Shown piece after piece: positions 12,469 through 48,241 of a DNA stretch of 58,320 nt. Within the stretch, counting starts at the first letter, position 1. Every line of letters starts with the position of its first letter. The position numbers and the translations under genes are program-made. Source of the DNA: a virus (taxonomy: Duplodnaviria; Caudoviricetes); IMG/VR virus record IMGVR_UViG_3300046791_000324, positions 1 through 58,320 of that record. One strand, written 5' to 3'. The notes below the pieces were generated by a model, which saw only the letters and a list, made by a program, of their open reading frames with translations, ran no database searches and was not told the origin of the DNA.

Positions 12469-13385
12469 AGCTCATTGTTGACCGTGCGGTCGAAGAGGTC
12501 GCGATATGTTTTCTCCAGTCCGACCAAAAGGGTAGTTGATGGCTCCCACTTTAAGGCGGCGCGAAGCGCCGCGTTGTCGGATGTCTTATGGCGGCACCCC
12601 TGCGGGGCATCGCGGTTATAGAACCGCACGGGCTTGATGCCGGAGATTTCTTCGAGGATGTCCACGATGTCGTTCACCGAGTGGGGCTCGGGGTGCGCGA
12701 GGTTCAGCGGTCCGCATTTCAGTCCGCCCTGTCGCGCCTTCACCATCATCCAGATTCCCCGGACACAGTCGTCGATGTATAGGAAATTTCGAGTCTGCAA
12801 TCCGTCACCCCAGATTTCGATTTCGTTTTTCCCGCTGAGCTGAGCCGCGATGAATTTTTTGCAGAGGGCCTCGATGACGTGCTCGCGACCCGCGGGCCGA
12901 ATGTCGCCAGGACCGTAGAGCGTGTGGAACCGCGCGACGGCGACGGGGACATTCTTGTCGTGCGAGAATGCCCAGCACATATCTTCGCTGAAAAGTTTTT
13001 CCTTGCCGTAGCCGGTGTGCGGGCTCTCCGAGTAAGCATCATGCTCTCGCATCGCGTGGTGTCCGCTGGGATAGACGCAGGACGAGGACGCGAAAAAGTA
13101 GCAGGCCGGCGGCTGGTAGGCGCACGCGCGGAGAAGATTCGCGTTGATGACCGCGGACATCATGCAGTCGGCGTCGTTGGCTTCGACGAAGCCGATGCCT
13201 CCGACCTGAGCGGCTAGATTGAAAACGTAGTCCGCGTGCTGACACACCAGCGTTGCCGTCTCCGGGTTGAGCAGGTCGTCGCCATACTTCCGGCTGGCGG
13301 TCTTGACATCGAGTCCGCGCTCGCGGAGAAAGGTGGTGAGGGCGCGGCCAACAAAACCGCTGGCCCCGGCGACAGTTGCACGCAT
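12438..13385 (-). CDS. NAD-dependent nucleotide-sugar epimerase/dehydratase (GDP-mannose 3,5-epimerase-like SDR)
   Basis: GASGFVG Rossmann motif, LAAQVGGIG, SSSCVY, YGKEK (YxxxK), RFHTLYGP, IWGDGLQTRNFLYIDD. Confidence 0.92.
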   Translation of the reverse strand: MRATVAGASGFVGRALTTFLRERGLDVKTASRKYGDDLLNPETATLVCQHADYVFNLAAQVGGIGFVEANDADCMMSAVINANLLRACAYQPPACYFFASSSCVYPSGHHAMREHDAYSESPHTGYGKEKLFSEDMCWAFSHDKNVPVAVARFHTLYGPGDIRPAGREHVIEALCKKFIAAQLSGKNEIEIWGDGLQTRNFLYIDDCVRGIWMMVKARQGGLKCGPLNLAHPEPHSVNDIVDILEEISGIKPVRFYNRDAPQGCRHKTSDNAALRAALKWEPSTTLLVGLEKTYRDLFDRTVNNELWQTSSIQTR

Positions 13386-13393
13386 GGCGGGGA

Positions 13394-13585
13394 TTAGACC
13401 TTGGTGTTCGTGGTGAAGCCAGGGCCCTTTGCGCCGTCGTAGCTTTCGTTGAACTTGCCCGGGGCCTTGGTGGACGGGTCAGGTCCGGACTTGTTGCAGG
13501 AAGCGCCTTCGCCGAGTTCGGCGTCGCGATAGTCTTCCTCGTCTTTGAAGGACCTGGGGTCGTGGGCGGTGATGTTCTTTGGCAT
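13394..13585 (-). CDS. 63-aa hydrophilic hypothetical protein
   Basis: ATG 7 nt after a class-II promoter; the longer upstream frame overlaps ncRNAs. Confidence 0.65.
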   Translation of the reverse strand: MPKNITAHDPRSFKDEEDYRDAELGEGASCNKSGPDPSTKAPGKFNESYDGAKGPGFTTNTKV

Positions 13586-13592
13586 ACGAGGA

Positions 13593-13621
13593 AAGAGGTT
13601 CCTCGCGGGGCCAAAAGTCAA
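13593..13621 (-). promoter_or_regulatory. Class-II promoter TTGACT-N17-CCTCTT
   Basis: Recurrent motif. Confidence 0.6.
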
Positions 13622-13634
13622 CCTGGAAAAAGGT

Positions 13635-13730
13635 TGGGCAGCGGTGGAATCGAACTCACATCGAGTTGGGTAGCTCGTCCCAATCCGACCTGTTGCAACA
13701 GCCGGGCTCCTCGCCCGGTTCAAACTGCCC
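13635..13730 (-). ncRNA. tRNA-like RNA with SelC/allo-tRNA-like layout and a TTGCAA mini-loop
   Basis: Acceptor GGGCAGT/GCTGCCC-A; 6-bp hairpin CCGGGC/GCCCGG; CTG-TTGCAA-CAG; long arm; GTTCGATTC T loop. Confidence 0.65.
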
Positions 13731-13738
13731 GTAAAAGT

Positions 13739-13870
13739 AAGCGGGGTTTTTTGCCTCACTATCGCAGAGCTCTCTCGGGCCGCGGCTCGGCCATCTCCGT
13801 TGGTGCGGGCTCGACGCGGACCCCGCTTGCCGAGGACAAATGCTTCGGCCTGATTGGCGAGCGAACACCA
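13739..13870 (-). ncRNA. Pseudoknotted structured RNA (ncRNA-C)
   Basis: TGGTGT/GCACCA crossed by AAGCGGGG/CCCCGCTT; GCCGA/TCGGC hairpin; U-rich spacers on both sides. Confidence 0.5.
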
Positions 13871-13874
13871 AAAT

Positions 13875-14094
13875 TGGTGGAGATTTCTTTGGTCAGTTTG
13901 AGGCCCCCGGACCCGGGAGTTTTCAGGCTCCCTTCTGTTATCCCGGTTTTTCTGGTCGCCCAGTTTTTCCGGAAATGGCACCTACTCTCAGGTTGTCACG
14001 TCTCCCCTCCGCGTTTGGAGCGCGGTCAGGACTTGTCGCAAGGTGGACGTTCACCGATTTAGCGGCTGTTTAGTCGCCGGCTTTCAGCCCCTCC
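13875..14094 (-). ncRNA. 220-nt multi-hairpin RNA ending in ACCA (ncRNA-B)
   Basis: 5' GGAG pairs with 3' CTCC-A-CCA; at least 7 hairpins; AATTTT spacers. Confidence 0.6.
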
Positions 14095-14099
14095 AAAAT

Positions 14100-14276
14100 T
14101 CGGGCCTACTTCACCAAGGGCCATTGCTCCATTACTGGGCAGCTCCCTTGTATTCTCTCGACAGCGATTGGCGTGTGGCGACGCCTACGTTTTACGCAGC
14201 AACCAAGAGCTTATCATACTCATTTGGCTTCTTGCACCCGCACCGTATCGTGATACCGGATGCCGCCTCGCGCCGA
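14100..14276 (-). ncRNA. 177-nt multi-hairpin RNA (ncRNA-A)
   Basis: TCGG/CCGA closing stem; GCATCCG/CGGGTGC, AGCCAA/TTGGTT, CTGCGT/ACGTAG, GGCGT/ACGCC, CAAGGG/CCCTTG with a CCA-GTAA-TGG tip. Confidence 0.55.
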
Positions 14277-14281
14277 GAAAT

Positions 14282-14391
14282 TGGCGGGTCCAGGGTTTAA
14301 GCCGAAGCATACCCATCTTGGCTCCTGGCAGCCCTCGACCGTAAATCACGAGGGCTGTCACGAGCCGTGTCCTTTCTTAGACGACAGACCC
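14282..14391 (-). ncRNA. tRNA-like RNA with greatly extended anticodon arm and CCA end
   Basis: GGGTCTG/TGGACCC-G-CCA; D arm GTC/GAC; ~16-bp arm GGCTC..CAGCCCTCG/CGAGGGCTG..GAGCC; atypical T arm with a C(TTCG)G tip. Confidence 0.7.
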
Positions 14392-14393
14392 AT

Positions 14394-14465
14394 TGGTTGC
14401 GGAGACAGGAGTCGCACCTGTGGAGTTTTGCTTATGAGACAAAATTGAATCTCATTCTCTCCGCA
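14394..14465 (-). tRNA. Atypical tRNA-Met/Ile2 (CAT) with a minimal D arm
   Basis: TGCGGAG/CTCCGCA-A-CCA; GAAT-GAG-ATTC; TTTTGT-CTCATAA-GCAAAA; ACAGG-TGCGACT-CCTGT. Confidence 0.8.
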
Positions 14466-14466
14466 A

Positions 14467-14478
14467 TTTCAAAGAACA
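14467..14478 (-). promoter_or_regulatory. boxA-like antitermination element TGTTCTTTGAAA
   Basis: Resembles rrn boxA; lies between the promoter and the first RNA of the cluster. Confidence 0.55.
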
Positions 14479-14491
14479 AACCTAACACCAG

Positions 14492-14521
14492 AACATATCA
14501 CGCAAAACGCGCGACCGTCAA
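14492..14521 (-). promoter_or_regulatory. Sigma70-type promoter of the RNA cluster (TTGACG-N18-TATGTT, TG-extended -10)
   Basis: Sequence motif directly upstream of the cluster. Confidence 0.55.
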
Positions 14522-14532
14522 CTCAAGAAAAA

Positions 14533-14715
14533 CTAAATTGGGAGGATGGCTTGCGCGGTCACCGTGTGACCGTATTCCTCGCCGCGCATGTCCGTCTTGT
14601 GCTGCACCACAAACGCGATGCTGCCGGCGGCCACCTGCTTCTGCAACTTAGCAGAAAGCGCGGCGGCAATGAGGTTCAGCAGCTCCGTTTCGTTGATTTC
14701 GACTTTGAGGTTCAC
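14533..14715 (-). CDS. Hypothetical protein
   Basis: GTG start overlapping the upstream TGA; 60 aa. Confidence 0.55.
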   Translation of the reverse strand: MNLKVEINETELLNLIAAALSAKLQKQVAAGSIAFVVQHKTDMRGEEYGHTVTAQAILPI

Positions 14716-14849
14716 TTGGCCTTGCTCCCGGTTTTTTCCCAGTTCTTGGGATGCAGTTTCTTGCCGGCGTTGAGCGCCTTGGCGCGCTTCTGGATTTTCT
14801 TGGACTCCTTCGGGGAGTTGATGAACTTGATGGTGGTGAGGTCGAACAT
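14712..14849 (-). CDS. Small basic hypothetical protein
   Basis: MFDLTTIKFINSPKESKK..., 45 aa, phage-like codon bias. Confidence 0.5.
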   Translation of the reverse strand: MFDLTTIKFINSPKESKKIQKRAKALNAGKKLHPKNWEKTGSKAK

Positions 14850-14863
14850 GTTGGTCTTGGTGG

Positions 14864-15154
14864 CTAGTTGTTTGGGTTGAAAACGGTGAGCGGGCGCGAG
14901 ACCCCTTCGACGCTCTCGCCCCAGGCGAACAGAAAGGCTTCGTGCAGCTTGGCGGTCTCGGCGTTGCGCGCCGCGGCAGCCTTCTTGCCCTCGCCCTGGT
15001 CGGGCGCGGCGAATTGAAAGGGCTCCTCGCAGCCCACGGTGTAAACTGCCCAGGCATCGCAGCCCAGCACGGGGCTCTGGAATACCCCAGAGACGGAGAC
15101 GATGTGTTGTGCTCGGAGGAACATGCCGTTTGGTGCTTCGATGATTTTGCTCAT
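14864..15154 (-). CDS. Hypothetical protein
   Basis: M(SKIIE) start downstream of TTGACA-N17-TACCTT. Confidence 0.6.
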   Translation of the reverse strand: MSKIIEAPNGMFLRAQHIVSVSGVFQSPVLGCDAWAVYTVGCEEPFQFAAPDQGEGKKAAAARNAETAKLHEAFLFAWGESVEGVSRPLTVFNPNN

Positions 15155-15155
15155 A

Positions 15156-15389
15156 TCAGTAAATTTCTTTTCTACGCAGGGGTAAGGTATCACCTGGGTG
15201 CGCGCATGTCAAGTCGCGGATGGTGCGGGCAATCGCTTTCTCCACCAGCTTCTGCACCCAGCCAAAGCCGGCCAAGAGTTCCTCCATCGAGCTGTCGGGG
15301 TGCAACAGGCAGTAGTCCCGGAAAAGCGGGTTGGTCTCGTTCATCTGTTTGAACTCTCGCTCGATTCTACTTGCGGCGTCTTTTCTCAT
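15156..15389 (-). CDS. Hypothetical protein
   Basis: 77-aa ORF in a packed operon. Confidence 0.45.
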   Translation of the reverse strand: MRKDAASRIEREFKQMNETNPLFRDYCLLHPDSSMEELLAGFGWVQKLVEKAIARTIRDLTCAHPGDTLPLRRKEIY

Positions 15390-15765
15390 TGGCTTTGATT
15401 TTCTTGCACAGGTGCGTGAGGTTTGAAAAGGTGTTGCCCGCAGCCATCACGTAGAGGATGCGCGTGTGCAGCTCGAACCATTCGTTGCTGTGCTCCACCG
15501 TGAGCAGGTGCGCCAGCTCGTGTGACATCGTGTCGATGATTTGATAGGGCAGGTCGAGGCCGCCCCACTTGTCTCCGCTGTTCGAGTTCCGGACGCGAAT
15601 GCAAATGTCGCCGTGCTTGTTGCACTTGCCGTAATACCAACATTTCTTTCGGGGCAACGGGGAGACGGAGCGCAGCGGCAGATTGAACATGCGCGCGTGA
15701 TGCTCCACCTGTCCCTTCACGAACTCAAAAAGCAGGCGGTCAGATTTCTTCAGGAGTTTGCTCAT
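15367..15765 (-). CDS. Zincin metallopeptidase (WLM/SprT-like)
   Basis: DTMSHELAHL (HExxH) followed by EH...WF. Confidence 0.75.
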   Translation of the reverse strand: MSKLLKKSDRLLFEFVKGQVEHHARMFNLPLRSVSPLPRKKCWYYGKCNKHGDICIRVRNSNSGDKWGGLDLPYQIIDTMSHELAHLLTVEHSNEWFELHTRILYVMAAGNTFSNLTHLCKKIKANEKRRRK

Positions 15766-15953
15766 GTTTCGATTTTGATGCAGGGCTTTGTTGAGCCGAC
15801 CCCGGCGTAGTAAAAGTATTCTGTGGTGAGCGACACGGTTTCCGCGTTGTCAAAGTTGCTGTCCCAGAGTCCGTCGTTGACCAGGACGGGGACCTTCCCG
15901 TGGCCGGCGGACTGGAGCGTCTGCAATTCGAGAATGAGTTCGTCGAGTGTCAC
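15762..15953 (-). CDS. Hypothetical protein
   Basis: VTLDELILELQ...; GTGA and ATGA overlaps with neighbours. Confidence 0.6.
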   Translation of the reverse strand: MTLDELILELQTLQSAGHGKVPVLVNDGLWDSNFDNAETVSLTTEYFYYAGVGSTKPCIKIET

Positions 15954-16645
15954 TTGCCGCCCTCCTGTCGCCGCTTCATCTCGCGCGTGTAGAGCACGCC
16001 CACCGTGGACGCAAACCAGTAGCGACCGTTCGGCGCGGGGAAGCCCTGGCCCTGCATATACCGCGCGATGTGGCGGAAGGTCCACTTGTCGCCGTTGCGG
16101 CACTTCACAATCGTGGCAATCATTGCGCGCTCAGCGTCCGTCTGCCCGTAGGGCTTCGGGCCCCCACACGGCTCGCCGGTTTCCCGTGCGACCTTGCGCC
16201 GGCCAGCCTGGAGCTTCAACACGAGCTGCGCCTTTTCCCACTGAGCCAGTGCGCCCAGGAGCTGTCGAATCAAAACGCGTGTCGGGTCGGCGTCTGCCAT
16301 CACGAGTTCCTCGCCCGAGTCCGCGGCATAAACCTTGATGCCCTTCTTGCGGCACTCACTCAGGAAAATCTCCTGCACCATCAAGTCGCGTGCGATGCGT
16401 GACGCGTCTTCGACGACGATGGTTTCAATCCCGTGGGCCGCATTCGCGCCGGCCAACGAAAGAATTTCGTGCAGCCCCGCGCGGCTGTCGAACTCCGTGC
16501 CTCCGGACTGTTGGTCCTCGAAGGTCCTCACGATGCGCCAGCCCTTCTTGTCGCAGAAGCCGGAGATTTTGTTTTGCTGGCGGTCGAAGCCGCCGCCGTT
16601 GAGCTGCTCCTTCGTGGAGACGCGGCAGTATGCGAAAACTTTCAT
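15950..16645 (-). CDS. Serine recombinase (resolvase/invertase family)
   Basis: AYCRVSTKEQ (catalytic Ser), SGG...RAGL, DASRIARD, C-terminal GGPKPYG plus HTH. Confidence 0.92.
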   Translation of the reverse strand: MKVFAYCRVSTKEQLNGGGFDRQQNKISGFCDKKGWRIVRTFEDQQSGGTEFDSRAGLHEILSLAGANAAHGIETIVVEDASRIARDLMVQEIFLSECRKKGIKVYAADSGEELVMADADPTRVLIRQLLGALAQWEKAQLVLKLQAGRRKVARETGEPCGGPKPYGQTDAERAMIATIVKCRNGDKWTFRHIARYMQGQGFPAPNGRYWFASTVGVLYTREMKRRQEGGK

Positions 16646-16647
16646 GG

Positions 16648-16980
16648 TTAGAAAACCCAGCGGATGGTGACGCTCGACCAGTCGGTTCCGTGGAAGGGCG
16701 AATCGGCGTTGAAGCCGAGGTCCAAAAAGTGGTGGCGCACCCTCTCGGCAGCTTCGTTCACCGCGTATTCAATCTTCGGCAGCAACACGGAGGCTTCCAA
16801 GCTGTTAGAGGAAACGGACACGCTCTCCTGCGGGTCCTCTTCGTGGAAGGCGCTGTCGATTCTAGTCTCCAGCGCGGCAATCCAGTCAGCCGTGAACTGC
16901 TCCACGCGCCGCTCGAACTTCGCTTTGCGCTCGGCCTCTTGCACGTCGTAGCGCGCTTTCATCTCGGCGTAGGTTTTCAT
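16648..16980 (-). CDS. Hypothetical protein
   Basis: ~110-aa ORF in a packed operon. Confidence 0.6.
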   Translation of the reverse strand: MKTYAEMKARYDVQEAERKAKFERRVEQFTADWIAALETRIDSAFHEEDPQESVSVSSNSLEASVLLPKIEYAVNEAAERVRHHFLDLGFNADSPFHGTDWSSVTIRWVF

Positions 16981-16982
16981 TG

Positions 16983-17591
16983 TCACTTGTTCTGGTCACG
17001 GCTGTCCATGATGACTTGGTGAAGTTTGCGGAGCGTGGCGCGAAGGCGCAAAATCTCGTTGTAGTTGTAGTTGTGGTCTCGCATCGCGCGGACCGACTCC
17101 AGCTCGGAGCGCATCGTGTTGCACTCCGTCGCGGTGACGCGGCTGTTGTCGCGATTGGGGTCCAGATGCTGCGTGCAGATGTGGGCCGCGACCAAACAGC
17201 CGGGGTGTAGCTTGTCGATTGCGCGGAGCAGTTCCGACTGGCGGTTGTTACACGCGGTCAGGCTGGCGATGGTGAGTTCCGACTGCGCGATGGTGTTATA
17301 CTTCTCGGCGTTCAAGGCGCGCAGGTCAGCCACGTCCTTCGTCAGGCCGGCGATGACGTTGGTGTTCTCGTCGCGAATCTTCACGAGCCTCTCAGCCGTG
17401 AGCTGGTGCGCGCCATCCGTGTCGGACACCCGCTTCTCAAGCTCTCGGATTTTGTTGGCCTGCCACTCGTTGGTCTTGGTGTAGCTGGCGTTCTGGCGTT
17501 CGAGAGACTCAATCGTAGTCTTCACGTTGTATGAGGCGATTTCAAATTGCTTGATTGCGTTGTTCATGAGCATGAGTCCGGTGAGGAACAT
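16983..17591 (-). CDS. Coiled-coil hypothetical protein
   Basis: Heptad pattern, 202 aa. Confidence 0.6.
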   Translation of the reverse strand: MFLTGLMLMNNAIKQFEIASYNVKTTIESLERQNASYTKTNEWQANKIRELEKRVSDTDGAHQLTAERLVKIRDENTNVIAGLTKDVADLRALNAEKYNTIAQSELTIASLTACNNRQSELLRAIDKLHPGCLVAAHICTQHLDPNRDNSRVTATECNTMRSELESVRAMRDHNYNYNEILRLRATLRKLHQVIMDSRDQNK

Positions 17592-17924
17592 TCAGTCGTT
17601 GCGTTTGAGGAGTGACGTGGGGACGTGCAGGACGGTGACGTGCTTGCCGCTCTCCCCGATGAAAAGCACCTTGCTATCGTCAAAATAAAGCGGGTTGACT
17701 TCGAGGATGACTCCAACGGCTTCGTGGAATAGGCAGGCCTTGATGATGACCCGGTCGCCCTTCTTGAGCGCCGCGGGCGCGGGCTTCTCGACGGGCACCA
17801 CGACGGCGTGGATTTCTTTGGGCGGCGCGTTGAGCAGGGAGCAGCCGTGGAGTATTCCGAAGGCGACACCCATGCTCAGGGCGAAGGTTGCGAGCAGTGC
17901 GAATTTGGTTTTGTTGATGTTCAT
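17592..17924 (-). CDS. Putative lipoprotein with a KOW-like motif
   Basis: Signal peptide ending LHGC; LKKGDRVIIK; preceded by TTGACA...TAGACT. Confidence 0.55.
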   Translation of the reverse strand: MNINKTKFALLATFALSMGVAFGILHGCSLLNAPPKEIHAVVVPVEKPAPAALKKGDRVIIKACLFHEAVGVILEVNPLYFDDSKVLFIGESGKHVTVLHVPTSLLKRND

Positions 17925-18300
17925 TACGGTGGTCAGTCTATCACAGGTTGGCGGTTTGTCAAATAGCAGATGGCGAAAGCGAGGCCGATGCAAAAGGGCG
18001 AGCAGCCGGTGGCCGCCAGGAAGCTAATCACGGCGAGCGTGCTCAAGAGGGTCTTGAGGGCCGGGCTCATCGGCTTGCAGAGTTCGTGTGCCGGCGGGGC
18101 CGGGGGCGCGGGGCGGCTCAGTCCAAAACTTGAGTTCATAATTTGTTGCCTTTGCGGCTGTAGATTTTCTTGCTCTGCCGGACGCGGGTCACGGGTTTCA
18201 GTGCGCCCCAGCTCCGGCGGACCTTGATGTCTTTCTTCTTCACACCCCAATGTCGCACAGCCCGGGAAAAAGTCAAGGCCCACGTCATGCGGGCCCTGCT

Positions 18301-18406
18301 TGGATGCGACCGGGAGGGATTTGAACCCTTGGGTGCTCCTTCACGGACCTACCCAGCGCCTGCAACTTGCCAACCCGGGTCCCCCCGGAGCCAGCTCAGC
18401 CGGTCA
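18301..18406 (-). ncRNA. Stand-alone tRNA-like RNA with the same layout as 13635-13730
   Basis: TGACCGG/CCGGTCG acceptor, hairpin, GTTGCA linker, TGGGT/ACCCA arm, AGGG-TTCAAAT-CCCT T arm; TTGACG...TACTTT upstream. Confidence 0.6.
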
Positions 18407-18800
18407 GGGGAAAAGTAGTCCCGCGGGGTCCCGGGCGTCAAGTCAAGCGGGCCAGTAGAACTCCGGTAGTGCGGGCGCGTAGTCATGCGGACAGGTCGCG
18501 AGTAGGCAGTTTTTTCATGGCGCGGCAACCGCTGAGCGGGGGACCCCCCGCGGAATGCCCCCCTTGGGGGTGGCCCTCGCGCTTTAACGCTAACGCGTGA
18601 GAATCGCGCATCGGCAAAGGCTGCCGACCGCTGCTGTCCTCAGTCTGGACTGTCCGCCTGCCCCTAAGTCGTTGCGTCGCAAGGTCAGCGCGTCATCGGG
18701 CCACACGGATGCGGCATTCTCACGCGTAAGCAGCTCTTGTGCCACGACATATCGTGGGCGCGACACGGTTCGTCCCACTTCTGGGACGCTCGACCTTCGC

Positions 18801-32931: not shown

Positions 32932-33888
32932 ATGCAAACTGACAACCATCTCTCATCCTATCCGTCCATCTACGCCATCGGGCACCGCTATCTCAACGAG
33001 CTGTTGAGTGGCCCAGTTGTCGTCGAAGAAAAGGTGGACGGCTCACAATTCTCAATGTGCCGACTGCCTTGCGGCCTGCTCCAAGTCCGCAGCAAGGGCC
33101 AGGAGATTCACCTGGGCGCGGTCCCTCAGCTTTTCAACCACGCTGTCTCCACCGCTCAGACGTTGGACCTGCACCCCGGCTGGGTGTATCGCGGCGAGTA
33201 TTTGCAGAAGCCGAAGCACAACACGCTCACCTACTCGCGCACGCCTGCGAAGCACGTCATCCTCTTCGACGTGATGACCGGGCCCGAGGTTTACCTCACG
33301 CCTCAGGAGAAGCGGGTCGAGGCTACAAGGTTGGACTTGGACGTAGTCCCCACATTTTTTGAAGGCGAGCTGCATGGGCTCATGGAGGACCGCAGGCCGA
33401 ATGCCACGGACTTCCTCGCCCATGACAGTATCCTCGGCGGCTGCAAGGTCGAAGGCTTCGTCGTGAAAAACTACAACCGCTTCGGCATCGACAAGAAAAT
33501 CCTCATCGGCAAGTTCGTGAGCCAGGAGTTCAAGGAACGCCACGGCGGCGAGTGGAAGAAAGCGAACCCCGGCACGCAGGACGTGGTGCAGAACCTCATC
33601 GTGCAGCTTCGCACCGAAGCACGTTGGCGCAAGCAGATTCAACACCTGCGCGACGCCGGCACGCTGACCGACACGCCGCAGGACATCGGGCCACTGATGC
33701 GCGAGCTGGCGACGGACCTGTTGAAAGAGGAAACGGACTTCATCCGCGACACTCTTTTCAATCACTTCATCAAACAGATTCAGCGCGGCGTGGCCGGCGG
33801 CTTCCCCGAGTTCTACAAGAAAGAAATCGGCATCGTCTCCGCACCTGAGTTGACGCCCGAAGTCGCGCCTGCTACAGTCACGCAATGA
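32932..33888 (+). CDS. RNA ligase (Rnl2-like ATP-dependent ligase)
   Basis: EEKVDGSQF (motif I), YRGE (III), LFDV (IIIa), EGFVVKN (IV), GKFVS..FKE (V). Confidence 0.85.
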   Translation: MQTDNHLSSYPSIYAIGHRYLNELLSGPVVVEEKVDGSQFSMCRLPCGLLQVRSKGQEIHLGAVPQLFNHAVSTAQTLDLHPGWVYRGEYLQKPKHNTLTYSRTPAKHVILFDVMTGPEVYLTPQEKRVEATRLDLDVVPTFFEGELHGLMEDRRPNATDFLAHDSILGGCKVEGFVVKNYNRFGIDKKILIGKFVSQEFKERHGGEWKKANPGTQDVVQNLIVQLRTEARWRKQIQHLRDAGTLTDTPQDIGPLMRELATDLLKEETDFIRDTLFNHFIKQIQRGVAGGFPEFYKKEIGIVSAPELTPEVAPATVTQ

Positions 33889-47752: not shown

Positions 47753-47780
47753 TTGACAAGTTGCCGGGGTGTGGTAAAAT
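47753..47780 (+). promoter_or_regulatory. Near-consensus sigma70 promoter: TTGACA, 16-nt spacer ending TGG, TAAAAT
   Basis: 6 nt upstream of the first RNA of cluster 2. Confidence 0.8.
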
Positions 47781-47786
47781 GTCTGC

Positions 47787-47974
47787 GGTTCGGTAGCACA
47801 AACGGAATAGTGCAGTCGCCACTTGAGTGTGGACCTCACGAGTAGGCAGGAGATGACCACGGAGTAATCAACCGGGCTGGCGTCCCTCATTGAAAGTGAC
47901 AGGGTGAGCCTGGAGGGAGTGATTCGCCCGAAAAGCAAACCCTGATGCCGGTTCGAGCCCGGCCTGAACCACCA
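47787..47974 (+). ncRNA. 188-nt tRNA-scaffolded RNA with a 132-nt structured insert
   Basis: GGTTCGG/CTGAACC-A-CCA; D arm GCAC/GTGC; T arm GCCGG-TTCGAGC-CCGGC; no canonical anticodon arm. Confidence 0.8.
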
Positions 47975-47979
47975 ATTTT

Positions 47980-48084
47980 GTCGGTGACGGTCCGCAGTGG
48001 GGTTGACCGGGACGGGACGGCGAGTCAACGCGCCTGTCAGCTCCCGCCCGCTGCGCCCGGGTTCGTTTCCCGGGGCTGACACCA
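47980..48084 (+). ncRNA. tRNA-like RNA (6-bp acceptor, 6-bp T stem) with a pseudoknot-capable core
   Basis: GTCGGT/GCTGAC-A-CCA; CCCGGG-TTCGTTT-CCCGGG; CGCAGTGGG/CCCGCTGCG; GTTGAC/GTCAAC. Confidence 0.7.
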
Positions 48085-48091
48085 ATTTTTC

Positions 48092-48190
48092 GGGAGGGTG
48101 GCGAAACTGGTAAACGCGTCGCTCCACAAGGGCGGCTGCCGGATATTGGCCATAAGCCGGTGTGTGCGGGTTCGACCCCCGCCCCTCCCA
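48092..48190 (+). tRNA. Type-II (Leu-like body) tRNA with an aberrant anticodon loop CC-ACA-AG
   Basis: GGGAGGG/CCCTCCC-A; GCG-AAACTGGTAAA-CGC; TCGCT/GGCGG; long variable arm; GCGGG-TTCGACC-CCCGC. Confidence 0.7.
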
Positions 48191-48241
48191 CTTTTTCTGA
48201 AATAAAACTTGCGCCGGGCGCAGCCTGTGGCACATTACGGT

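What the first reader, a model, noticed from the sequence alone, without database searches (positions are those of the whole stretch)
13635..18406. Two sequence-divergent RNAs share one layout: acceptor-TGA-hairpin-GTTGCA-hairpin-T arm
Seen: 13635-13730 and 18301-18406 differ in stem sequence. Both have a 7-bp terminal stem plus a pyrimidine mismatch, a TGA linker, a GC-rich hairpin, the hexamer GTTGCA, a second long arm and a ~4-bp T stem with a TTCRA loop. Established: an 8/4 frame with a long variable arm recalls allo-tRNA and selC* tRNA-Cys (GCA anticodon). Here the anticodon stem is only 3 bp or missing. Inference: a distinct ncRNA class, with the two copies supporting each other.
Basis: partly seen in the sequence, partly recalled or inferred. 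Interest (0 to 1): 0.75.

Follow-up and report, generated by a model that had tools for sequence, protein, structure and literature searches.

The report
Two unrelated tRNA-shaped phage RNAs
A soil phage carries two tRNA-shaped RNA genes that cannot read codons: one belongs to a small family kept by compensatory mutations in related phages, the other stands alone, and they are not two copies of one new RNA class.

Summary
Both elements exist at the given coordinates and are read on the minus strand of a 58-kb soil-phage contig. Each has a 7-bp end stem, a GC-rich hairpin whose loop holds GG, a long extra arm and a 4-bp T arm.

E1 (13635-13730) is a real conserved RNA:
- It is the last module of a 0.9-kb promoter-driven row of tRNA and tRNA-like modules.
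- It has relatives at or near the same slot in two related phage lineages.
- 94% of pair cells are kept, and 13 of 30 pairs changed on both sides.
- Its anticodon arm is only a 3-4 bp mini-hairpin with a 4-7 nt loop, so it cannot decode.

E2 (18301-18406) is an orphan:
- It is absent from the same slot in five relatives and from four complete related genomes.
- The E1-family model scores it at 10 bits, no better than other tRNA look-alikes in the window.

The shared GTTGCA and TGA are at chance level. E1's relatives read CTTGCA and TATGCG.

The closest known things are allo-tRNAs and the "polycistrons of irregular tRNAs" from soil (Mukai 2017). I read E1 as a new variant of a known kind. Its function is untested; a non-decoding tRNA mimic is most likely. 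This scan has noted similar arrays on other DNA.

The parts
13635..13730 (-). E1: a 96-nt tRNA-shaped RNA, the last module of the array. End stem 13730-13724 with 13642-13636. D-like hairpin 13718-13702. Mini-hairpin holding GUUGCA 13701-13690. Long arm 13688-13661. T arm 13659-13644.
   Evidence: Sequence. Fold z -2.99. Relatives in L009 and L020. Covariation, 94% of 84 cells paired, 13 of 30 pairs changed on both sides, 0 of 500 shuffles as high.
18301..18406 (-). E2: a 106-nt orphan tRNA-shaped element. End stem 18406-18400 with 18313-18307. Long hairpin 18395-18369. Unpaired 13-nt stretch holding GUUGCA 18368-18356. Long arm 18355-18330. T arm 18329-18315. Tail CAUCCA 18306-18301.
   Evidence: Sequence. 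One of 2 strict T-arm-plus-end-stem hits in the window against 0.33 expected. No relatives. Absent from the same slot in L001, L002, L014, L018 and L021.
18274..18298 (-). Terminator-like hairpin directly after E2: 10 pairs, then ACTTTTTCCC.
   Evidence: Consensus scan. The scan found 12 such sites in the region against a mean of 7.7 in shuffles, so this is weak on its own.
14492..14521 (-). Promoter-like site, TTGACG-18-TATGTT, at the head of the RNA array that ends with E1.
   Evidence: The same TTGAC...GATATGTTC...TGTTCTTTGAAA leader heads the arrays of related phages.
14394..14465 (-). tRNA-Met (CAU), the first module of the array. It has a reduced D arm and T loop UGCGACU.
   Evidence: ARAGORN. 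Rfam tRNA at 31.2 bits.
14282..14391 (-). Second module: a derived tRNA-like RNA that starts GGGUCUGUCGUCUAAGAAAGGACAC and ends ...CUGGACCCGCCA.
   Evidence: Sequence. Coordinates. The same 5' motif occurs in L001, L004 and L015. In L020 a nearly normal tRNA begins with a similar stretch.
13733..13831 (-). Module M3: a structured RNA closed by AAGCGGGG with CCCCGCUU, directly upstream of E1.
   Evidence: Present in all 9 related arrays examined. No Rfam match. The structure was not resolved.

Best explanation
E1 and E2 are two separate, non-decoding tRNA-shaped RNA genes of an uncultivated soil phage. They are not two members of one new class.

E1
- Shown: it is the last module of a 0.9-kb row of tRNA and tRNA-like modules, headed by a promoter-like site and a tRNA-Met, that is conserved and reshuffled among related phages.
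- Shown: its end stem, D-like hairpin, long arm and T arm are kept by compensatory changes in two other phage lineages.
- Shown: the anticodon arm is only a 3-4 bp mini-hairpin with a 4-, 4- or 7-nt loop, so selection does not act on decoding.
- Inferred: the row is transcribed as one RNA. Host tRNA-maturing enzymes cut E1 out: RNase P at the 5' end, with trimming and CCA addition at the 3' end.
- Inferred: E1 folds into an L shape, with the GG of the D-like loop docking on the T loop.
- Inferred: it works through its end-stem/T-arm/elbow half as a tRNA mimic that binds a tRNA-recognising protein. That protein could be a host tRNA-directed defence enzyme or a synthetase that ignores the anticodon.

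E2
- Shown: it has a similar outline and sits between a second conserved non-coding region and a terminator-like hairpin.
- Shown: it is a lineage-specific insertion with no relatives found.
- Open: it may be a recently acquired tRNA-like gene or a decayed one.

My odds: E1 is a real conserved tRNA-shaped RNA, about 0.85. E1 and E2 are not one family, about 0.8. The mimic or decoy mechanism for E1, about 0.35.
For: Context
- The window is a phage record with phage genes.
- ARAGORN and Rfam tRNA do not call either element.
- Related phages are syntenic around both elements. E1 sits right after module M3 and in front of the conserved promoter of a conserved 63-aa gene.

E1 relatives
- The single-sequence model R1 finds L009 2780-2882 (31.5 bits, E 3.2e-5) and L020 3440-3537 (28.3 bits, E 2.1e-4) in 168,309 bases. 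The only other hit scores 9.5 bits.
- With model R2 they score 64.1 and 86 bits.
- The L020 copy follows M3 directly. The L009 copy is the last module before the next gene.

E1 covariation
- On a MAFFT alignment of E1 and L020 made independently of any model, 17 pairs are 97.1% paired and 5 changed on both sides.
- On the three-row alignment, 30 pairs are 94.0% paired over 84 cells and 13 changed on both sides. 0 of 500 shuffles reach this, and the slid controls are 27-49% paired.

E1 anticodon region
- It reads CUGU-UGCA-ACAG in E1, CUG-CUUGCAA-CAG in L009 and CUU-AUGC-GAG in L020.
- All three D-like loops hold GG.

E1 variant in another sample
- A contig of run X2 covers 13300-13714. It lacks the bulged A at 13656 and 15 letters of the long arm.

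E2
- It is one of 2 strict hits in the window against 0.33 expected.
- A terminator-like hairpin follows it.
- It scores 10.0 bits with R2, against 10.2 and 9.9 for other look-alikes in the window.
Against: - The E1 family has only three distinct sequences. The three-row alignment was fitted to the model's own structure, which leans the counts towards that structure. The model E-values are rough.
- Patterns built from the three members found no further member in IMG/VR or in one genome per prokaryote species. The family is therefore tiny, or the patterns are overfitted.
- Nothing here shows transcription, processing, charging or any binding partner.
- Pfam scans of 65 reading frames found no Ro/TROVE protein, synthetase or CCA-adding enzyme. 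The only RNA-related hit is an RNA-ligase domain at 32932-33888.
- The discriminator base is not conserved (A, U, and U or G). E1 encodes no CCA, while the other two end in CCA.
- L009 has a regular 7-nt loop, CUUGCAA, on a 3-bp stem, so decoding in that one member is not excluded.
- In both E1 and E2 the stretch between the hairpin and the long arm is 13 nt with GUUGCA at offset 3. That coincidence is post hoc, but it is exact.
Confidence: 0.55

Rival explanations
1. One reading: E1 and E2 are two diverged copies of one distinct non-coding RNA class. The class is defined by end stem, TGA, hairpin, GTTGCA, long arm and T arm.
For: Both elements have all the listed features. In both, the stretch between the hairpin and the long arm is 13 nt with GUUGCA at offset 3. 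Both hairpin loops hold GG.
Against: - The E1-family model gives E2 10.0 bits, the same as generic look-alikes in the window.
- The E2 model does not list E1.
- GTTGCA is not kept in E1's two relatives, and the kept linker is GAA rather than TGA.
- Shared hexamers are expected by chance.
- E2 has no relative.
Confidence: 0.1
2. They are working decoder tRNAs of an unusual shape. Candidates are an allo-tRNA, or a selC*-like tRNA-Cys reading UGC/UGU through GCA or tRNA-Ala through UGC, with a shortened anticodon stem.
For: - UUGCAAC in E1 and UUGCAGG in E2 can each be read as Y32-U33-GCA-R37.
- L009 has a regular 7-nt loop, CUUGCAA.
- A phage tRNA with a long arm and anticodon loop UUGCAAC exists at L085.
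- Allo-tRNAs with an 8/4 shape do work in translation (PMC5389517, Results read).
Against: - The stem under the loop has 3 pairs in L009, 2-4 in E1 and 1 in E2.
- Loop length varies between 4 and 7 nt, and the loop triplet is not kept among the three E1 relatives.
- There is no U73, which CysRS needs, and no G3:U70, which AlaRS needs (identity rules as stated in PMC5389517).
- ARAGORN and Rfam tRNA reject both elements.
Confidence: 0.08
3. They are decaying tRNA genes with no function. This is the main alternative for E2.
For: - E2 has no relatives, and its fold is no better than shuffles.
- Its centre is unpaired.
- It resembles, in pieces, long-arm phage tRNA-Met-like genes such as L090: end stem, GUUGCAGGC and T arm, 22.9 bits.
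- Inactive allo-tRNA pseudogenes are on record (PMC5389517).
Against: - For E1: compensatory changes in four helices across three lineages.
- For E2: an intact 7-bp end stem and a perfect T arm in a compact phage genome, lying in its own gap with a terminator-like hairpin.
- The 22.9-bit likeness to L090 is inflated, because those loci were picked by a pattern taken from E2.
Confidence: 0.2
4. E1 acts only in cis. It is a tRNA-shaped 'punctuation mark' that lets RNase P and 3' tRNA-end trimming enzymes release or stabilise the neighbouring module M3 and close the polycistron.
For: - A tRNA-like module always follows M3 directly, but its type differs between phages: E1-type, GGGYCUGUCG-type or the L006 type.
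- Module borders read ...CCA AUUU throughout the rows.
Against: - A processing mark needs only the end stem and T arm, yet the D-like hairpin and the long arm are also kept by covariation.
- In L020 the E1-type module is followed by two more tRNAs, so it is not always terminal.
Confidence: 0.17

Closest known systems
Allo-tRNAs (8/4 and 9/3) and inactive allo-tRNA(UAU)-like sequences (Mukai et al. 2017, NAR, PMC5389517; Results and Discussion read)
   Same: - tRNA-Sec-like outline: a long D stem (6 bp in E1) with a 4-5 nt loop holding GG, a long variable arm and a 4-bp T stem.
- An eighth position on the end stem, here a pyrimidine mismatch.
- Soil origin.
- Some published members are inactive in translation and were proposed to be regulatory RNAs.
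   Different: - Published allo-tRNAs have a long anticodon stem and a normal 7-nt loop. E1 and E2 have a 1-4 bp stem or none.
- The 12-bp acceptor branch is incomplete here: 7 pairs, a mismatch, then 4 pairs.
- Six short motifs from E1 and E2 are absent from the paper's supplementary sequence table.
Polycistrons of irregular tRNAs from forest and peat soil metatranscriptomes (same paper; passages in PMC7609411)
   Same: - A row of several aberrant tRNA-like sequences transcribed together, from soil.
- Extra loops and odd stems.
- Charging possible without use in translation.
   Different: - Those were attributed to acidobacteria and placed near toxin-antitoxin genes. Here the row is on a phage and starts with tRNA-Met.
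- Here the row also holds non-tRNA modules (M1-M3).
- I found no sequence overlap with the motifs I searched for.
selC* tRNA-Cys
   Same: A tRNA-Sec-like body with GCA in the anticodon place. E1 has a bulged A in the T stem, recalling the A51a bulge.
   Different: - No U73 in E1.
- No 6-bp anticodon stem.
- No Pfam hit to a selB- or cysS-type protein among the 65 frames scanned.
- The bulge is absent in both relatives and in the X2 variant.
YrlA / bacterial Y RNAs (recalled; no paper read here)
   Same: A non-coding RNA with a tRNA-like T arm, D arm and acceptor-like stem, also found in phages.
   Different: In Y RNAs, as I recall, the ends form a long Ro-binding helix and the tRNA-like part is internal. 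Here the T arm abuts the end stem as in a tRNA. No TROVE/Ro gene was found among 65 frames scanned, and there was no Rfam hit.

Membership tests
Canonical tRNA (Rfam RF00005 / ARAGORN) | The element scores above the family threshold and has a 5-bp anticodon stem with a 7-nt loop | tested here: not met
   ARAGORN at default settings calls neither element. RF00005 matches only 48092-48190 and 14397-14465. With thresholds lowered to 80%, ARAGORN reports 68 'genes' in the window, which is noise.
Allo-tRNA (Mukai 2017) | A 12-bp acceptor branch, as 8/4 or 9/3 | tested here: inconclusive
   E1 and E2 have 7 pairs, a pyrimidine x pyrimidine mismatch at the eighth place, and then a 4-bp T stem. The mismatch recurs in L020 as U x U.
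Allo-tRNA (Mukai 2017) | A long D stem with a tetraloop, and a long variable arm | tested here: met
   E1 has a 6-bp stem with loop GAGGA and a 10-position long arm, and both covary. E2 has an 11-bp stem with loop GGGA and a long arm.
Allo-tRNA (Mukai 2017) | A long anticodon stem with a 7-nt anticodon loop | tested here: not met
   The stem is 3-4 bp with a 4-, 7- or 4-nt loop in E1, L009 and L020. E2 has essentially no stem.
selC* tRNA-Cys | U73 discriminator and a GCA or UCA anticodon in a normal loop | tested here: not met
   The discriminator is A in E1. It is C in E2, or U in an alternative register. GCA is not kept in L020.
selC* tRNA-Cys | Neighbouring selB*/cysS* genes and a Sec system | tested here: not met
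   No such Pfam family among the 65 reading frames of the window that were scanned.
tRNA-Sec (Rfam RF01852) | Score at or above the gathering threshold of 47 bits | tested here: not met
   E1 scores 18.8 bits at E 4.8. E2 has no match.
YrlA / Y RNA | A Ro-binding terminal helix and an rsr (TROVE) gene nearby | tested here: not met
   No TROVE hit in 65 frames and no Rfam Y-RNA match at E up to 10. The Ro-binding helix motif itself was not modelled.
E1 family (defined here) | Match to model R2 with the end stem, D-like hairpin, long arm and T arm all kept | tested here: met
   E1 scores 110.9 bits, L020 86 and L009 64.1. E2 fails at 10.0 bits.

The most novel reading that the evidence does not exclude
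The whole 0.6-1.3 kb row is a phage 'tRNA-mimic cassette'. It comprises tRNA-Met, several rebuilt tRNA-shaped RNAs such as E1, and the conserved modules M1-M3, which match nothing in Rfam. Its members are cut out by the host's tRNA-processing enzymes. They act as decoys or antidotes for host enzymes that attack or sense tRNAs, or they are charged and used outside translation. E1-type RNAs would then be a dedicated non-decoding tRNA mimic maintained by soil phages.
Probability: 0.2. Interest if true: 0.8.

Novelty: new variant of a known kind. Interest (0 to 1): 0.45.

Why it matters
Phage tRNA genes are usually explained by codon supply, or by replacing tRNAs that host defences cut. Here selection keeps the body of a tRNA (end stem, elbow, long arm) while the codon-reading arm is lost. 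It sits in a row with other rebuilt tRNA shapes and with conserved RNA modules of no known family. That points to a job for tRNA shape outside decoding in soil phages. It also gives a concrete, small RNA to test for processing, charging and protein binding. For this scan, the result shows that two look-alike tRNA-shaped elements in one genome need not be related.

Tried and rejected
Searches for relatives that found nothing
- blastn of 13300-18800 against deposited phages: no match.
- Short-word BLAST of E1 and E2 against the first loci: only 11-15 nt chance matches.
- Anchoring on ORF 16983-17591: no relatives.
- One viral scan was wasted on a wrong reading frame, my slip, and was repeated correctly.
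- Exact and degenerate patterns: the E1 3' part in viral contigs, 0; the E2 3' part in one genome per species, 0; the E2 centre plus T loop in viral contigs, 0.

General pattern GTTGCA-N25-45-GGGTTCRAATCC in viral contigs
- ARAGORN calls an ordinary tRNA in 56 of the 116 and none in 60.
- In many of these hits GTTGCA is the end of the D loop plus the D stem.
- The E2 model run over 100 of the 116 gives at most 22.9 bits. The last 16 were not searched.

Pattern built from the three E1-family members
- 7 viral and 51 genome stretches were returned. Only the two already-known copies of the L009 sequence score well, at 64.1 bits; the next best is 20.7 bits.

Sequencing runs
- No RNA holder is listed, so nothing can be said on expression.
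- Parts without cover in the laid runs, E2 among them, are not evidence.

Ideas dropped
- HDV-like ribozyme, RNase P RNA and tmRNA readings of modules M1-M3 were considered by eye. There is no Rfam hit, ARAGORN finds no tmRNA, and the putative catalytic C is not kept.
- RNAalifold on M3 gave no usable consensus, because the MAFFT alignment mixed a long and a short form.
In 8 of 9 rows here the longest stop-free run lies within the range of shuffles.

Full report
WHAT THE WINDOW IS. The window is a whole IMG/VR virus record of 58,320 bases, estimated 81% complete, with 60% G+C. Pfam finds phage-type genes. These include a family A DNA polymerase, a DUF5906 primase-helicase, a PD-(D/E)XK nuclease with DUF2800, a UvrD-type helicase, endonuclease VII, a small serine recombinase at 15950-16645 (-), a sigma factor, an RNA-ligase domain at 32932-33888, and a 1786-aa polyvalent protein with an ADP-ribosyltransferase domain. 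These came from 27 and 38 reading frames. Near-identical DNA occurs in soil metagenome runs.

THE OBSERVATION. Both elements must be read on the minus strand, where the T arm lies at the 3' end. ARAGORN at default settings calls only tRNA-Met at 14394-14465 (-). Rfam at its own thresholds calls only a tRNA at 48092-48190 (+). At a relaxed threshold E1 gets a weak tRNA-Sec match (18.8 bits against a threshold of 47, E 4.8), and E2 gets nothing.

CHANCE. A strict scan for a TTCRA T loop, a 4-bp T stem and a 7-bp end stem finds two places in the window, E2 and the tRNA at 48092. The mean in 100 dinucleotide shuffles is 0.33, and 5 of 100 shuffles reach two. Both hits lie between genes. E1 folds better than its shuffles (z -2.99); E2 does not (z -0.76).

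The shared hexamer carries no weight. GTTGCA occurs 38 times in the window against 37.7 expected. E1 and E2 share five different hexamers. 92% of shuffled E2 share at least one hexamer with E1, and 39% share one within 10 nt of the same position.

SURROUNDINGS OF E1. Relatives of the phage were collected through the neighbouring 337-aa protein and through a very conserved 63-aa protein that starts at 13585 (-). This gave about ten distinct phage lineages, with syntenic gene order.

In all of them a stretch of 0.6 to 1.3 kb without a convincing gene lies between the recombinase block and the 63-aa gene. In the window this stretch runs from about 14520 down to 13620. It starts with a promoter-like site, TTGACG-18-TATGTT, and a conserved leader. 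Then come a tRNA-Met and a series of modules. Many modules end in ...CCA followed by AUUU.

Some modules are recognisably tRNA-derived. An example is the one that starts GGGYCUGUCGUCUAAGAAAGGACAC; in L020 a nearly normal tRNA begins with a similar stretch. Others (M1, M2, M3) have no T arm and match nothing in Rfam. E1 is the last module. It lies directly after M3 and in front of the conserved promoter of the 63-aa gene.

E1 IS A CONSERVED RNA. A covariance model built from E1 alone, with the structure read from the sequence, was searched over the window and 14 non-redundant loci (168,309 bases). Besides E1 it found L009 2780-2882 (31.5 bits, E 3.2e-5) and L020 3440-3537 (28.3 bits, E 2.1e-4). 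One further hit of 9.5 bits is noise.

- The L020 copy follows M3 directly.
- The L009 copy is the last module before the next gene.

On a MAFFT alignment of E1 and the L020 copy, made without any model, the end stem, the long arm and one T-stem pair give 17 pairs. These are 97.1% paired, and 5 changed on both sides.

On the three-sequence alignment fitted to the model there are 30 pairs.

- 94.0% of 84 cells are paired.
- 13 pairs changed on both sides.
- None of 500 shuffles reaches this.
- Controls with the partner slid by 1-3 columns are 27-49% paired.

Fitting to the model favours the structure, and three rows are few. But six of the seven end-stem pairs changed on both sides, which is hard to explain otherwise.

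A contig of another soil run covers 13300-13714. It lacks the bulged A of the T stem and 15 letters of the long arm. The long arm therefore varies in length.

WHAT IS NOT CONSERVED IN E1.

- The stem has 3-4 pairs and the loop has 4, 7 and 4 bases.
- The hexamer reads GTTGCA, CTTGCA and TATGCG in the three.
- Before the hairpin, the linker keeps GAA, not TGA.
- The discriminator base differs between the three.
- Only L009 and L020 encode CCA.

The kept parts are the end stem, the D-like hairpin with GG in its loop, the long arm and the T arm. Those are the parts that give a tRNA its L shape and are read by processing enzymes and by synthetases that ignore the anticodon. The latter point rests on established tRNA biology, not on a test made here.

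E2 STANDS ALONE. E2 lies after a second conserved gene-free region of about 360 nt (18800 down to 18440). That region is shared with L001, L002, L014, L018 and L021. In all five of those relatives the slot of E2 is empty: the promoter of the next gene follows directly. A terminator-like hairpin follows E2.

Tests of kinship between E1 and E2:

- The three-sequence E1-family model does not list E2 at E up to 10 in 168 kb.
- With filters off it scores E2 at 10.0 bits.
- The same model gives 10.2 and 9.9 bits to two other tRNA-like elements of the window.
- A model built from E2 finds only itself in the 168 kb, and does not find E1.

Searches for E2 relatives:

- Nothing in four related phage records that are 98-100% complete; a fifth record was not held.
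- At most 22.9 bits among 100 of 116 viral loci picked by a pattern taken from E2. Those hits are ordinary or long-arm tRNAs in which GTTGCA is the end of the D loop.
- Exact searches with parts of E2 found nothing.

E2 is therefore a lineage-specific tRNA-shaped insertion. Whether it is a working gene or a decayed one cannot be decided here.

COMPARISON WITH WHAT IS KNOWN. I read the Results and Discussion of Mukai et al. 2017 (PMC5389517). They describe tRNA-Sec-like 'allo-tRNAs' with these features:

- an 8/4 or 9/3 acceptor branch;
- a long D stem with a tetraloop;
- a long variable arm;
- a long anticodon stem.

[quoted passage not shown] Passages of a review repeat this (PMC7609411).

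E1 and E2 share the body plan but fail the anticodon-arm feature. Their eighth acceptor pair is a pyrimidine mismatch. Six motifs of E1 and E2 are absent from that paper's supplementary sequence table. I could search that file but I did not read it in full.

selC* tRNA-Cys is excluded because U73, a normal GCA loop and selB*/cysS* neighbours are all lacking. Y RNAs are unlikely: no Ro gene and no Rfam match were found, and the T arm abuts the end stem.

A full-text search for phage tRNA-like arrays found nothing closer. That is one search of open-access papers only.

Earlier notes of this scan describe a similar row of RNA modules in another soil phage (e1-6035073) and an anticodon-less tRNA-shaped RNA kept by compensatory changes in a phage (e1-2101673). 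These are leads, not evidence.

MECHANISM AND VERDICT. Shown:

- E1 is a conserved, structured, tRNA-shaped RNA gene in a promoter-headed row of such modules.
- Its codon-reading arm is not under selection.
- E2 is not demonstrably related to it.

Inferred: E1 is transcribed with the row, cut out by tRNA-processing enzymes, and acts as a tRNA mimic through its end stem, T arm and elbow. It could be a decoy for a tRNA-directed host enzyme, a charged RNA used outside translation, or merely a processing mark. I give the mimic reading about 0.35, a processing mark about 0.17, decoding about 0.08 and plain decay about 0.1 for E1. For E2 I give decay about 0.4.

I class the finding as a new variant of a known kind, the irregular or allo-tRNA-like RNAs. 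Its interest is moderate. The more unusual thing is the row of modules as a whole.

Noticed in passing
window 13620-14521 (-); also L001 13300-15010, L004 2580-3500, L006 2480-3500, L009 2020-2890, L015 1575-2470, L018 5180-6500, L020 2850-3700, L021 5240-6500: A 0.6-1.3 kb promoter-headed row of RNA modules, conserved and reshuffled among about ten soil-phage lineages. Each row starts with a TTGAC-type promoter and the leader TGTTCTTTGAAA, followed in most rows by tRNA-Met. Many modules end in CCA followed by AUUU. Modules M1 (GUCGAGACGGGGUUUCGCG...GGACGCAUGGCCCCGCACC; not seen in the window), M2 (CGCAGACGGCUCCUGCGUAAUGAGAGCCG) and M3 (closed by AAGCGGGG with CCCCGCUU) have no Rfam match.
   Followed up: partly
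window 18440-18800 (-); also L001 8800-9100, L002 5960-6300, L014 1400-1740, L018 790-1080, L021 1500-1800: A second conserved gene-free region of about 360 nt lies after the 337-aa gene. Shared motifs include CAGUGAGCGAA..UCGAGCG, GCUCAGCGGUUGCCGCGCCAUGAAAAAACUGCCUACUCG and CCGGAGUUCUAC. It has only chance-level Rfam matches (E 1.7 or worse). It is probably another structured RNA.
   Followed up: no
window 47760-48195 (+): A second small row on the plus strand. A strong promoter-like TTGACA-17-TAAAAT lies near 47765-47793. Two tRNA-like elements both end in CACCA (about 47902-47974 and 47978-48086). A long-arm tRNA follows at 48092-48190, with the odd anticodon loop CCACAAG. Rfam tRNA scores it at 43 bits, and ARAGORN calls it only when introns are allowed.
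   Followed up: partly
L006 3202-3296 and L007 3211-3304: At the slot that E1 holds in the window, these phages carry a different tRNA-shaped RNA. It runs GGGAGAC...GACUCCC G CCA, has no D arm, and has a 5-bp hairpin whose 9-nt loop reads UUGCAAAGU. The two copies differ by one loop base and one deletion.
   Followed up: partly
L020 3550-3700: Two nearly normal tRNAs close this row, but their anticodon loops are odd: CAACAAA, and a 6-nt CUGAUU.
   Followed up: no
L049, L069, L083, L090, L125 (viral contigs): A group of phage tRNA-Met(CAU)-like genes with a long variable arm and a mismatched outer T-stem pair, so possibly an 8/4 shape. They share with E2 the stretch GUUGCAGGC, the T arm and part of the end stem.
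   Followed up: no
window 13397-13585 (-): A 63-aa protein (MPKNITAHDPRSF...) that is 74-86% identical across all the related phages, with 38 invariant residues. It lies directly after the RNA row behind a conserved promoter, UUUUCCCRGGUUGACW. It was not put through a family search.
   Followed up: no
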